Assembly: GCF_018350175.1 (NCBI RefSeq)
Contig: NC_058368.1
Span: 58,158,001-58,222,000 of the forward strand
Length of the DNA stretch: 64,000 nt
DNA from: Felis catus
Taxonomy: Eukaryota
Direction: 5' to 3'
Part shown: positions 6,859-59,208 of the stretch, piece after piece
How the letters are laid out: each line of letters starts with the position of its first letter
How positions within the stretch are numbered: position 1 is the first letter of the stretch
Position numbers and translations under genes: made by a program
Notes under the pieces: generated by a model
Told to the model about the DNA's origin: nothing
Database searches by the model: none
What the model saw: only the letters and a program-made list of their open reading frames with translations

Positions 6859-6928
6859 TAAACTATGTGTATAGAAATATACATATAAACTATGTGTATA
6901 GAAATATACATATGTGTATAGAAATATA
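6859..6928. repeat. 27-bp tandem duplication plus partial third copy
   Basis: TAAACTATGTGTATAGAAATATACATA twice, then TGTGTATAGAAATATA. Confidence 0.9.
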
Positions 6929-10677: not shown

Positions 10678-10793
10678 TATCTCTATATGAACAGCTATAA
10701 CATCTCCACCCATACATCTCCAGCTATAGCTATCTCTACATGAACATCTCCAGCTATAGGTATCTCTACATGAACAGCTATAACATCTCCACC
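10678..10793. repeat. Complex local duplication mosaic
   Basis: 33-bp unit at 10678-10710 and 10761-10793, with a 30-bp rearranged tandem unit between them. Confidence 0.85.
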
Positions 10794-18827: not shown

Positions 18828-19043
18828 TTTTACTTTTTAGATGTCTATTTATTATTGAGAGACAGAGGGAGACAGAGCATGAGCATGGGAAGGACCCAGA
18901 GAGGGGAGACACAGAATCTGAAGCAGGCTCCAGGCTCTGAGCAGTCAGCACAGAGCCCGATGTGGGGCTCGAACTCACAAACTGCGAGATCATGACCTGA
19001 GCCGAAGTCAGATGCTTAACTGACTGAGCTACCCAGGCGCCCC
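18828..19043 (-). mobile_element. Can-SINE (SINEC_Fc-type)
   Basis: Full length. TSD TGGT(G/A)AAAATATATTTTA (18810-18827/19044-19061). Confidence 0.97.
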
Positions 19044-27581: not shown

Positions 27582-27846
27582 TCAGAGATCTGAACACCAG
27601 ATTTTTACACAACTAATAAATTAATATCAGAGAGATACTTTATATATATATGTGTATATATATATATACTTTATATATATATATGAGATACTTTATATAT
27701 ATATATAAACACATATATATGAACATATATATATATATATACTTATATATATATATACTGAACATATATATATATATATACTTATATATATATACTTTAT
27801 ATATATATATCAGAGAGATACTTTATATATATATATATATAGAGAT

Positions 27847-27892
<46 letters not shown>

Positions 27893-28068
27893 CAGAGATC
27901 TGAACACCAGATTTTTACACAACTAATAAATTAATATCAGAGAGATACTTTATATATATATATATTAATATCAGAGAGATACTTTATATATATATATACT
28001 TTATATATATATATATTTATATATATATAAATAAATATATATATATATACACATAAATATATATATAT
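27582..28068. repeat. Compound (TA)n array with duplicated flanking sequence
   Basis: 69-bp exact duplication 27582-27650/27892-27960. AGATACTT and TGAACA fragments recur inside the TA runs. Confidence 0.9.
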
Positions 28069-28124
28069 AAAATTGGTAGAGTTTGTGCTCATGAGCGTAT
28101 AGGATGTGTCTTTGTGTCCGTGTG

Positions 28125-34405: not shown

Positions 34406-34624
34406 GGGGCGCTTGGGTGGCTCAGTCGGTTAAGCATCTGACTTCGGCTCAGGTCATGATCTCGCGGTTTGTGAGTTCAAGCCCCGCATCAGGCTCTGTG
34501 CTGACAGCTCGCAGCCTGAGGCTGCTTCGGATTCTGTGTCTCTCCATCTCTCAGCCCCTCGCCTGCTCATGCTCTGTGTCTCTCTGTCTCTCAGTAAAAA
34601 GTAAATGTTAAAAAAAATTTAAAA
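34406..34624 (+). mobile_element. Can-SINE (SINEC_Fc-type)
   Basis: Full length. Perfect 16-bp TSD AAAAGATTCAAAAGAT (34390-34405/34625-34640). Confidence 0.98.
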
Positions 34625-41270: not shown

Positions 41271-41410
41271 TATTCCTATGAACTTATGAATTGAAATTTT
41301 AACATATTAAAAACCTTAATCATATTAATTAAAATATATTAAGTTCATTAAGTGCACATAGTCTACATAATATACTAAAAATTCAATATATGCTCATTGG
41401 TGACAATAAA

Positions 41411-41590
41411 TATAAACACTATATTAACACTATATGTAATATAAACTATTTATATATATATATATTGTTTATATTGTTTATATATATACATATAAACATT
41501 GTATATATATACACATATATACATATATATACATATATATACATATAAACATTGTTTATATGTATATATAAACACTATATATAATATAAA
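41411..41590. repeat. TA-rich mosaic repeat with 37-bp palindrome
   Basis: Perfect 18-bp arms at 41534-41551 and 41553-41570. Duplicated AACACTATAT(G/A)TAATATAAA. Confidence 0.85.
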
Positions 41591-45460: not shown

Positions 45461-45724
45461 GTTTTCTAGAGGTGAGCAGGGTAGAGAAATACAAGTGTTT
45501 AAGTGAGCTACAGTGAATATTTCTCTAGGTTTTATGTATATATATGTGTGTTTCGGGAGATTTATTCATTTTCTAGCTATTGAATAACCACATGTAAAAA
45601 ATATTAAAATATTGAGAAGTACAAAACATGGAGGTATGTGAAGTATACGAGTTTAGAAGTGCATCATTTTTATATTTTCGTTACCTTGTCTGAAGATGGA
45701 TGTTGGTTCATTGTGATTTGAATG

Positions 45725-45794
45725 GATCTGAATAATTGGATCACCCAATTAACTTTTGAACAGATTTGAATAATCGGATCACCCAATTAACTTT
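45725..45794. repeat. Tandem duplication, 38-bp period
   Basis: GAT(C/T)TGAATAAT(T/C)GGATCACCCAATTAACTTT twice. Confidence 0.9.
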
Positions 45795-53112: not shown

Positions 53113-53340
53113 GGGGCGCCTGGGTGGCTCAGTCGGTTAAGCGTCCGACTTGAGCTCAGGTCATGATCTCGCGGTCGGTGAGTTCGAGCCCCGCGTCAGG
53201 CTCTGGGCTGATGGCTCAGAGCCTGGAGCCTGCTTAGGATTCTGTGTCTCCCTCTCTCTCTGCCCCTCCCCTGTTCATGCTCTGTCTCTTTCTGTCCCAA
53301 AAATAAATAAAAGTTAAAAAAATTAAAAAAAAATAAAATA
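53113..53340 (+). mobile_element. Young Can-SINE inserted in the L1 A-rich tail
   Basis: GGGGCGCCTGGGTGGCTCAGTCGGTTAAGCGTCCGACTT.., CpG-rich. Confidence 0.98.
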
Positions 53341-56197: not shown

Positions 56198-56326
56198 TAT
56201 ATATATATATATACGTATATATATATATATGTATATATACATATACATGTATATATATATGTATATATATACATATATATATACATATATATATATATAC
56301 TGTGTGTATATATATATACACACACA
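56198..56326. repeat. (TA)n-rich microsatellite
   Basis: Direct reading; interrupted by TG/CA units. Confidence 0.95.
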
Positions 56327-56780
56327 AATTTAACAATATTTAATAAAGTGGGTAAACTTGAAATTCCATTGTGAAAGTCTCATTGATTGCAGGGGAATTA
56401 CAGTGATGGACTTTGTCTTCATAAGGCAATGTAGTGAGGAGTTTAAGGTTTAAATATATTGAGGTTGGTGAAGTTAAAGGCAAATATAAACATTACCAAT
56501 CAATTTGGTACATTGAAACTCAAAGTTTTCTAAGCTCTTCAAGCGTTTTCTTTTAAAAGGCACATTTATAAAACTGAGAGCATCCTGTCTTTGTATGCTG
56601 CTGAATATGTGTTTCAACTTATTTTTAGCAAAGACAACATGGCCATACAGTTTCTATAAATGAACAATTTAATATCAATTATACAAAATGTTGTGAAATA
56701 AATACTTTTCAAAAATTATTTATGGCATCTCTATCTAAATTTGAAGGCACTTCACATATCTTTTGCATGACCATACTAAT

Positions 56781-57745
56781 ACATCAACAGTATTAGAAAC
56801 TAAATTACTTAATGGAAATCATAGTAAAGTTCCTATTTAATACCAACAATAAGAATTATGGGTTGCTTTGGTATGCATTTGAAAGTAAACTAAAGTTAAA
56901 AAATAGTATTTTCAGAAAAAAATGTCCTATTGTTTTGAAAGTCCAAGACATCTTCTGGTTGTCTATTTATGTCTTGTTGAAATGACTTTTATGTTATGAA
57001 GAAAATACATTTGTGTTACCAACTATATTAATTAAAATTAAGAAACTATTGAAACATTATTCTTCATCCTTCCTTCTCTTTAATGACAAAAGGGACTAGA
57101 ACATTAATTTTTTTTTTCAACGTTTATTTATTTTTGGGACAGAGAGAGGCAGAGCATGAACGGGGGAGGGGCAGAGAGAGAGAGGGAGACACAGAATCGG
57201 AAACAGGCTCCAGGCTCCGAGCCATCAGCCCAGAGCCTGACGCGGGGCTCGAACTCACGGACCGCGAGATCGTGACCTGGCTGAAGTCGGACACTTAACC
57301 GACTGCGCCACCCAGGCGCCCCAGAACTTTTGAAATATATACATTAACTAGTAGGTATGAGACCCTAAAAGGTACACATGGAAGAAGATGTAGCAAAAAC
57401 AAAACAAAACCCCAGACATCACCTTGATGTGCTCAACCTCAAATTTCTGGGTTGTTTTAAATACTTGAACAATCCTAAAATGTATAGAGAACAACTGAGG
57501 TCCTCATTTTCCAGATCTGTGACATCAACAGTATTAGAAACTAAGTTACTTAATGGAAACCATGGTAAAGTTCCTATTTAAAGCAACAAAAATTTATGGG
57601 TTGCTTCGCTATGCATTTGAAAGTAAACTAAAATTAAAAAATAACATCTTCAGAAAAAAATGTCCTATTGTTTTGAAATTCCAAGACATTTTCTGGTTGT
57701 CTAAATATGTCTTGTTGAAATGATTTTTATGTTATGAAGAAAATA
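56781..57745 (+). repeat. About 225-bp interspersed direct duplication (56781-57007 and 57522-57745)
   Basis: Both copies run ACATCAACAGTATTAGAAACTAA..TTTTATGTTATGAAGAAAATA, roughly 90% identical by eye. Confidence 0.95.
57108..57322 (-). mobile_element. Young Can-SINE (SINEC_Fc)
   Basis: Close to consensus, CpG-rich, nearly identical to the copy at 22644-22860. Confidence 0.98.
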
Positions 57746-58471
57746 TATAGACAGTGACTTACAGGGGAACAGTTCAAAATCCACACTTTACTGGGAAAAG
57801 TATGAGTACTTTAATCTGATACCAAAAGAGATGTCTTTATGCCAAGGCTACTTAAAGAAGTCAAGTGGATATGCTTAGCACATTTCAAAAAGTATTTCAT
57901 AGAATAAAGTTTATTTTTTTACTGTGATCTGATTTGAATCAAAGTAAATGCATTTATATTTTGAGGCATGAAGTCCAATCTTTCATCGTTAAGGATGTTT
58001 CATTCCCTGTATTCTTTCAGCTACTGTTTATAAAATTTCTAAACTCATTAAAACATCATTTAGCAGGAAGCACATGAATAAGAACATGCAAAAGGAAGTT
58101 TAATACTTATTATTATTTTCCATTTATGTTGATTTTGTGTCACCTTAAAATATTATATGAAATTTCTTAATTATGAGGAAATTAAAAATATAATCTAGCA
58201 TATATTTCAAATATTAAGACAATAGAAAACCATTTCATTATAAAGAGCATAAAGTTCTTGTTCATTATTACCTGGGGTAATTAGGTATTCATATATATTT
58301 CCAGGAAAGCTGTATGTTAAATATCAATTCTTACTAGAAAAAAAGCAAAGATTCATAATAGTGTGAAAATTAGGGAAGTTAATTTAAGAATAAATTTCAT
58401 AAAGATAAGACTACATTCAATTATTATAAGTTAGATCTGTTCAAAATATTTCCTTAAATGTAGATAAATAC

Positions 58472-58497
58472 TATATACACACAACTTTAGAAAAAAA

Positions 58498-58535
<38 letters not shown>

Positions 58536-58589
58536 AGATATATATATGGATATATATATGGATATATATATATGGTTTTTGTCTAAAGT

Positions 58590-58633
<44 letters not shown>
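58472..58633. repeat. (TA)n array with inverted duplication of its flank
   Basis: 58479-58500 and 58573-58594 are reverse complements at 21 of 22 positions, around a TA-rich centre. Confidence 0.92.
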
Positions 58634-58636
<3 letters not shown>

Positions 58637-58638
<2 letters not shown>

Positions 58639-58688
58639 GCCTTCCAACGGTCCTTTGCAGTCTGTGCAGGTCTTCGGCCGCAAGAAGA
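58637..58688 (+). pseudogene. RPS16: 52-bp fragment of the 40S ribosomal protein S16 5' CDS
   Basis: Translates [17 protein letters not shown] against the mammalian RPS16 N-terminus [17 protein letters not shown] (16/17). A GC-rich island between TA runs. Confidence 0.93.
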
Positions 58689-59208
58689 ACATATATATAT
58701 ATGTTGTGCTTTAGTGTGTAATTCACTAGTCTAGACATTAAAATGTAGCAGAGAAAGATGCAGAGAAAGAACAGACATCTTTGAGGAACAATAGTAAATA
58801 GCAAATAATCCATTTACTTCTGATTTCACTTTTGCATATATTGTATAGTAATCTTAATAAATGTTCATAAAAATGTAATGGGCTAGCTGATTTTTGTACC
58901 CATGAAACTATATAACATATGTAATGATGTATCTTCATGGTAAATTATGTTTTTCATATCTGTAAGCTGTTATGTATCATAAGTCAAGATAGGTCACTCA
59001 TTAAGATACGCTGTGAATCAATTTGTTTTTTGTTTTTTGTTTTTTGTTTGGTATTTAGGGTCAATGGGCTCATTTTAAGTTTAGGAAGGTTACATGACAG
59101 TGTCTTCTAGGATGAACAATAGTAGTCAATCCAAAATTTAAAAAGTGGATATACAAATTCTGTATCAATAATGTTTAGGGATTAAAGATTAAGAAAATAA
59201 AATAAATT

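What the first reader, a model, noticed from the sequence alone, without database searches (positions are those of the whole stretch)
58637..58705. Spliced RPS16 mRNA 5' fragment captured inside a TA microsatellite
Seen: 52 bp encoding [17 protein letters not shown], starting exactly at the ATG, flanked by TA runs and followed by the perfect palindrome AACATATATATATATGTT. There is no poly(A), no TSD and no other RPS16 sequence in the window. Known: L1-made processed pseudogenes keep the 3' end and poly(A). From memory, human RPS16 intron 1 follows codon 16; here codon 16 is followed by AAGA (exon 2), not GT, implying a spliced template, though only 4 nt support this. Inference: an RNA/cDNA-templated patch inserted during repair of a broken TA cruciform, or a copy from a processed pseudogene elsewhere. 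This is the best candidate for novel biology in the window.
Basis: partly seen in the sequence, partly recalled or inferred. Interest (0 to 1): 0.8.

Follow-up and report, generated by a model that had tools for sequence, protein, structure and literature searches.

The report
mRNA scrap patching a TA break
A 53-base piece of the ribosomal protein S16 gene's sequence, running across its first splice junction, sits in a TA repeat of this cat-family genome among back-to-front copies of neighbouring DNA; it was likely copied in from messenger RNA while a DNA break was being mended, a known kind of rare accident, with no sign of a function.

Summary
The piece is RPS16. Read contigs from 2 of 3 DNA runs laid (two studies) join it to the right flank, and one also shows the left junction, so it is no assembly chimera. 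The same contigs show the gene's exon 1 ending at 58684 followed by GT; one RNA read matches 58636-58688, across that junction. The contig graph shows no other genomic copy that shares 30 exact bases across the junction or the codon-4 change. Best reading (0.6): an RNA/cDNA patch at a break in the TA repeat (class-2 templated insertion type). Rivals: a trimmed retrocopy, an L1 tailless copy with a 3-nt duplication, a DNA copy of exon 1 with AAG slippage. Splicing rests on 3-4 bases; no empty allele was seen. A neat new member of a known kind.

The parts
58472..58499 (+). left flank; template of the inverted copy
58500..58533 (.). (AT)17 run
58534..58573 (.). three short units, each GG (mirror of the CC before the AT run) plus AT repeat; read as aborted fold-back rounds (inferred)
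58574..58599 (-). inverted copy of the left flank; 1 substitution and one 2-nt gap against 28 nt
   Evidence: 62-nt arms, 90%; DNA fold z -11.3
58594..58633 (.). (TA)20 run
58634..58637 (+). CACA, mirror of the TGTG before the TA run; last two bases shared with RPS16 (-1, +1)
58636..58688 (+). RPS16 piece, mRNA positions -1 to +52; differs from the gene at 58648 (codon 4)
58637..58684 (+). coding part of RPS16 exon 1 (codons 1-16); identical to the gene over 58649-58684
   Evidence: records 2, 4, 7; loose ends after 58684 begin GT
58685..58688 (+). first 4 bases after the splice junction (exon 2 start)
   Evidence: RNA read reaches 58688; K17, T18
58688..58705 (.). 18-nt palindrome: AAC mirrors the GTT that starts the right flank; first A shared with RPS16
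58703..59051 (+). right flank, on one 397-nt contig with the RPS16 piece in runs X1 and X2 (laid to 59015, 0 differences)

Best explanation
A 53-base piece of RPS16 that runs across the exon 1 splice junction sits, without tail or long target duplication, among mirrored copies of its own flanks, and was likely copied from RPS16 mRNA (or its cDNA) as a patch while a break in the TA repeat was being joined. Steps: (1, inferred) the self-complementary TA run broke in a germ-line cell. (2, sequence shown, process inferred) Its 3' ends folded back and were extended in short rounds, leaving three GG restarts, a 26-nt inverted copy of the left flank, CACA on the left and AAC on the right. (3, inferred) The right-hand minus-strand end primed on the mRNA through 1 shared base, 4 bases into exon 2, and was extended about 52 bases toward the mRNA's 5' end; the piece lies sense on +, which fits this polarity. 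(4, sequence shown) The new end meets the left side at a 2-base overlap. The enzyme is not shown: L1 ORF2p acting at a ready-made break, or a repair polymerase such as Pol theta. The result is a dead scar with no promoter, frame or sign of function.
For: Real in reads: 397-nt contigs of X1 and X2 cover 58655-59015 with 0 differences; a 67-nt contig of X1 covers the left junction. Spliced: gene contigs leave the window at 58684 into GT; the window and one RNA read go on to 58688. Donor is the live gene's sequence: 36 of 36 identical at 58649-58684, 1-2 differences in 53 to the RNA read. No second DNA donor seen: contigs overlap by 30 bases, so a copy sharing 30 bases would split them; none is split at 58688 (X1, X2) or around 58648 (X1), and the shared 36-nt contig has depth 36.3, about insert (19.7-22) plus gene (13.5). 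Fold-back letters: both TA runs beside the piece extend as perfect palindromes by 4 and 3 bases, against 4 of the 40 other TA runs in the window with 3 or more. Known chemistry: Pol theta stem-loop extension leaves inverted repeats (PMC11292364); MMEJ mends breaks at TA repeats (PMC13645644); spliced-mRNA pieces with 1-5 nt microhomology are captured at breaks in mouse zygotes (PMC4516963).
Against: Only 3-4 bases lie beyond the splice junction and they repeat the preceding AAG. The RNA support is one read out of 12.9 million records read (the tool drops human-like reads). No empty allele in 0 of 3 DNA runs, so the pre-insertion state is reconstructed, not seen, and the inverted copy may be a separate event; other TA loci in the window carry local copies with no foreign piece. 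A 3-nt ACA on both sides allows a simpler target reading, and CA interruptions of TA runs occur 6 times elsewhere in the window. Microhomologies of 1-2 bases are weak. X5 gave nothing.
Confidence: 0.6

Rival explanations
1. An ordinary near-full-length L1-made processed pseudogene landed here, and a later deletion at the fragile TA site removed everything after base 52, including the tail.
For: Spliced form, sense start near the mRNA 5' end; ribosomal-protein retrocopies are common (recalled); the locus is plainly unstable.
Against: Only 1-2 differences in 53 from the mRNA and both original CpGs kept leave little time for a second event; the left junction, which should be an L1 5' junction, sits on fold-back letters with a 2-base overlap; no leftover TSD longer than 3 nt.
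Confidence: 0.17
2. An L1 tailless retro-copy: internal priming at the A-rich AAGAAGA of the mRNA into a (TA)nCA(TA)m target, with a very short staggered cut that duplicated ACA.
For: 3' end lies in an A-rich stretch; 3-nt ACA on both sides; tailless copies are primed internally at A-rich sites and include mRNAs (PMC5322556); the Thr codon after K17 starts AC, one base off the target's AC.
Against: That class is defined by 8-35 nt TSDs and a TT/WAAAAWW target; neither is present; it leaves the palindromic fit at both ends as coincidence.
Confidence: 0.1
3. A DNA-templated switch to the RPS16 gene's exon 1, with the last AAG doubled by slippage so that it only looks spliced.
For: Exon 1 ends in AAG and the next three bases are AAG; the last A can come from the palindrome; template switching is evident at the locus.
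Against: The copy would have to stop exactly at the exon end and then gain exactly the bases of exon 2; a random genomic donor is far less likely than an RNA donor to be a ribosomal-protein exon (inference).
Confidence: 0.07
4. A DNA copy from a young RPS16 retrocopy elsewhere that has since changed or is absent from these animals.
For: Would give a spliced piece with no reverse transcription at the break; retrocopies that differ within each 30-base stretch are invisible.
Against: No genomic copy shares 30 exact bases across the junction (X1, X2) or the codon-4 change (X1), while the live gene matches 36 of 36.
Confidence: 0.05
5. Assembly chimera or laboratory contamination.
For: Hard-to-sequence TA hairpin; X1 may be the source sample; X5 showed nothing.
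Against: The right junction stands, letter for letter and at flank depth, in two runs of different studies and years.
Confidence: 0.01

Closest known systems
Class 2 templated sequence insertions (TSI/TSIP; Onozawa and Aplan, PMC5110952, parts 1-2 of 4 read)
   Same: Distant donor left intact, no TSD of 5 nt or more, no tail, microhomology at junctions, germ-line origin; donors there include spliced cDNAs.
   Different: Shorter than the 73-414 bp experimental inserts; sits in a TA repeat with fold-back copies of the flanks; polymorphism not shown here (both informative runs look homozygous).
RT-product-mediated break repair (RMDR) in mouse zygotes (Ono et al., PMC4516963, passages read)
   Same: Spliced mRNA piece cut at both ends, joined by 1-5 nt microhomology, no TSD.
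   Different: Those were Cas9 breaks with inserts of 300-800 nt crossing several junctions; here a natural site, 53 nt, one junction crossed by 3-4 bases.
Pol theta templated insertions and stem-loop extension (PMC11292364, passages); MMEJ at TA-repeat breaks (PMC13645644, passages)
   Same: Short inverted copies of adjacent DNA made in rounds, joined by tiny microhomology, at a TA repeat.
   Different: Those templates are local DNA; an unrelated mRNA as one of the templates did not appear in the passages read.
Tailless retropseudogenes (Noll et al., PMC5322556; abstract, passages, first half of Results)
   Same: RNA-derived, 3'-truncated, no tail, ends in an A-rich stretch, 30 nt or longer.
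   Different: No 8-35 nt TSD and no TT/WAAAAWW target here.
RNA-templated break repair by Pol zeta, whole-intron deletions (PMC12065846, abstract and passages)
   Same: Spliced mRNA as a repair template.
   Different: That acts at the gene's own locus by homology; here the RNA is from a distant gene and the join is by 1-2 bases.

Membership tests
Class 2 TSI/TSIP | Insert templated from a distant locus, donor intact | tested here: met
   Gene contigs with exon 1 and intron present in X1 and X2; no donor in the window
Class 2 TSI/TSIP | No TSD of 5 nt or more, no poly(A), no TTTT/A target | tested here: met
   Longest junction duplication 3 nt; no A run of 7 or more after the piece
Class 2 TSI/TSIP | End-joining marks (microhomology, extra bases) | tested here: met
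   2-nt and 1-nt overlaps with fold-back letters; weak by length
Class 2 TSI/TSIP | Empty site known; insertion, not leftover of a deletion | tested here: inconclusive
   No empty allele in 3 DNA runs laid; no own or related genome held
RMDR / RNA-templated patch | Insert crosses a splice junction | tested here: met
   Exon 1 ends at 58684; window and one RNA read run on to 58688; only 3-4 bases, slippage not excluded
RMDR / RNA-templated patch | No closer genomic (retrocopy) donor | tested here: inconclusive
   None at 30-base exact identity in X1, X2; diverged copies not visible
RMDR / RNA-templated patch | Dependence on a reverse transcriptase | not testable with these tools
   Needs experiment
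Canonical L1 processed pseudogene | 3' end with poly(A) and TSD | tested here: not met
Tailless retropseudogene | 8-35 nt TSD and TT/WAAAAWW target | tested here: not met
   3-nt ACA only; target is a TA run (definition)
Tailless retropseudogene | 3' end in an A-rich single-stranded part, 2-18 nt complementary to target | tested here: inconclusive
   Ends in AAGAAGA; 1 base shared, or 2 with a one-base slip; RNA structure not folded
Pol theta templated insertion | Inverted or direct copies of adjacent DNA in rounds | tested here: met
Pol theta templated insertion | Dependence on POLQ | not testable with these tools
   Needs experiment

The most novel reading that the evidence does not exclude
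One repair reaction at a broken TA hairpin switched between fold-back copying of its own DNA and reverse transcription of an unrelated, abundant mRNA: a germ-line fossil of Pol theta-type RNA-templated end joining in trans. TA repeats would then be traps that hold many such short exon-junction scraps, missed by pseudogene catalogues because they are too short.
Probability: 0.2. Interest if true: 0.62.

Novelty: new member of a known kind. Interest (0 to 1): 0.34.

Why it matters
As a single locus it is a clean natural example of a known accident and has no sign of function. Its value is as a pointer: whether repair polymerases reverse-transcribe unrelated mRNA at natural germ-line breaks is open, and a foreign mRNA scrap bracketed by fold-back copies is a signature that can be counted genome-wide in TA repeats, against other AT-rich sites and against canonical retro-copies.

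Tried and rejected
Own genome: none held. A 21-base stretch of the piece found 0 matches in viral and 0 in metagenome contigs, so no outside RPS16 DNA came from there. Word shares (14 DNA-type rows at 0.85-0.91) cannot tell carriers from empties: ceilings 0.862 against 0.814-0.843, sampling error about 0.034; not used. X5 laid nothing, which the tool says can be false. X1 record 5 (under 90% alike, 5 gaps, unrelated loose end) is taken as a chance match from another TA locus, not an empty allele. The 94-aa frame over 58430-58714 is TA-repeat text. Rfam and ARAGORN found only SINE-type tRNA heads, none near the finding. An 8-nt direct repeat at 58456/58741 is away from the junctions and not a TSD. 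The long TA runs and left flank were not part of the stretch laid, so the inverted copy is unchecked in reads. Earlier findings: none near, none by sequence, none by words. Nine paper searches listed no paper on mRNA capture at TA repeats or on this locus; the library lacks most subscription papers, and no supplements were opened (the insertion lists of the TSIP and tailless papers may hold like cases).

Full report
Setting. The window is AT-rich, non-coding mammalian DNA with many copies of a tRNA-headed SINE; the label 'carnivore SINE' is recalled. A feline metagenome among the holders and earlier notes on this genome (unchecked) point to a cat; I treat it as felid. No whole genome is held.

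The observation. 58637-58688 reads [17 protein letters not shown]. All 16 PDB sequences matched are RPS16/uS9, best E 3e-05, with K where the window has N4, and T18 after K17. No 11-mer of the piece recurs in the window. There is no A run of 7 or more after it and no junction duplication above 3 nt.

It is in the reads. One search listed 24 runs; I laid 4 of them on 58626-59015. In X1 and X2 (different studies and years) a 397-nt contig covers 58655-59015 with no difference, so the right junction is real in 2 of 3 DNA runs; a 67-nt contig of X1 covers the left junction; X5 gave nothing. One of the two may be the assembly's source, not both. Neither contig forks at the right junction and their depth (22, 24.5) is that of the flank, so both animals look homozygous; contigs can drop variants, so this is soft. 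No empty allele was seen.

The donor. In X1 and X2 a second contig (1084, 1089 nt) matches 58655-58684 and then leaves into a GC-rich stretch that begins GT: the gene's exon 1 and intron 1. One read of the oligo-dT RNA run X24, 95-99% alike, covers 58636-58688 (bin depths 0.23 and 0.85 = 3 and 11 places) and then runs on unlike the window. So the spliced form matches from -1 to +52 with 1-2 differences. It is one read of 12.9 million records; the tool drops human-like reads. The contigs overlap by exactly 30 bases, so any other genomic copy sharing 30 bases would split them. The 36-nt contig 58649-58684 is shared by gene and insert (depth 36.3, against 19.7-22 plus 13.5); it starts at 58649 because the two differ at 58648. 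There is no split at 58688 in either run and none inside X1's left-junction contig. Hence no retrocopy with 30 exact bases across the junction, or with the codon-4 change, is present in these data; more diverged copies are invisible. Divergence is 1.9-3.8% (95% range 0.05-13.6%), both original CpGs stand, and the inverted copy differs from its template by one substitution and one 2-nt gap: fairly young, not dated.

The locus parses with almost no unexplained base: left flank ending CC, (AT)17, three GG-plus-AT units (the first with an extra AG), a fourth GG that runs on as a 26-nt inverted copy of the left flank (arms 62 nt, 90%; DNA fold z -11.3, 0 of 200 shuffles as good), (TA)20, CACA mirroring the TGTG before that run, the RPS16 piece, AAC mirroring the GTT after the last AT run, right flank. 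The last two bases of CACA are RPS16's -1 and +1; the first A of AAC is its +52. Of 42 TA runs in the window, 6 extend as perfect palindromes by 3 or more bases, and 2 of these are the runs beside the piece. Other TA loci here also hold local copies, such as an exact 70-nt copy of the flank at 27892: the habit is common, the foreign piece is not.

Mechanism. Most likely (0.6) a break in the TA run was joined by rounds of fold-back synthesis, one of which used RPS16 mRNA or its cDNA. The polarity fits priming from the right-hand minus-strand end. Break, order and enzyme are inferred. Against: only 3-4 bases lie past the junction and they repeat the AAG before them, so slippage on a DNA copy of exon 1 stays possible (0.07), though it needs the copy to stop exactly at the exon end. 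A 3-nt ACA on both sides, with 6 CA interruptions of TA runs elsewhere in the window, allows an L1 tailless reading (0.10). A full retrocopy later trimmed (0.17) cannot be excluded without relatives. A changed or lost retrocopy as donor gets 0.05, artefact 0.01.

What is known. PMC5110952 (parts 1-2 of 4 read) defines class 2 templated insertions: distant donor, no TSD or tail, end-joining marks, spliced cDNAs among donors. PMC4516963 (passages) shows spliced-mRNA pieces captured at Cas9 breaks in mouse zygotes with short microhomology. PMC11292364 (passages) shows Pol theta stem-loop extension from two base pairs, giving inverted repeats. PMC13645644 (passages) ties MMEJ to breaks at TA repeats. 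PMC12065846 (abstract, passages) shows spliced mRNA as a repair template at the gene's own locus. It works like a class 2/RMDR patch and meets the features testable here, with the empty site untested. Nine searches listed no paper on mRNA capture in TA repeats; the library is partial and no supplements were read.

Verdict. Real, well-formed, a new member of a known kind; interest 0.34. The bold reading, one repair reaction alternating fold-back DNA synthesis with reverse transcription of an unrelated mRNA at TA traps, has probability about 0.2 and would deserve about 0.6.

Noticed in passing
window 27582-28069: Complex TA array holding an exact 70-nt direct copy of its left flank (source 27582, copy 27892), many short repeats of the flank end, and mirrored letters around TA runs; a second locally templated scar.
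   Followed up: partly
window 56781-57010 and 57522-57748: 230-nt direct duplication, 91% alike, 741 bases apart, with a young SINE (about 57104-57330) between the copies.
   Followed up: partly
window 41406-41588 and 56198-56330: Further TA arrays with interruptions and mirrored letters (15-base and 6-base palindromic extensions at 56262 and 56307).
   Followed up: no
window 6859-6928, 10714-10776, 45717-45794: Short tandem duplications of unique sequence (27, 30 and 38 nt units, 90-100% alike).
   Followed up: no
   Followed up: no
window 18953-19038, 34411-34496, 53118-53203: tRNA calls fall on heads of the window's SINE copies, not true tRNA genes (inferred from self-BLAST).
   Followed up: partly
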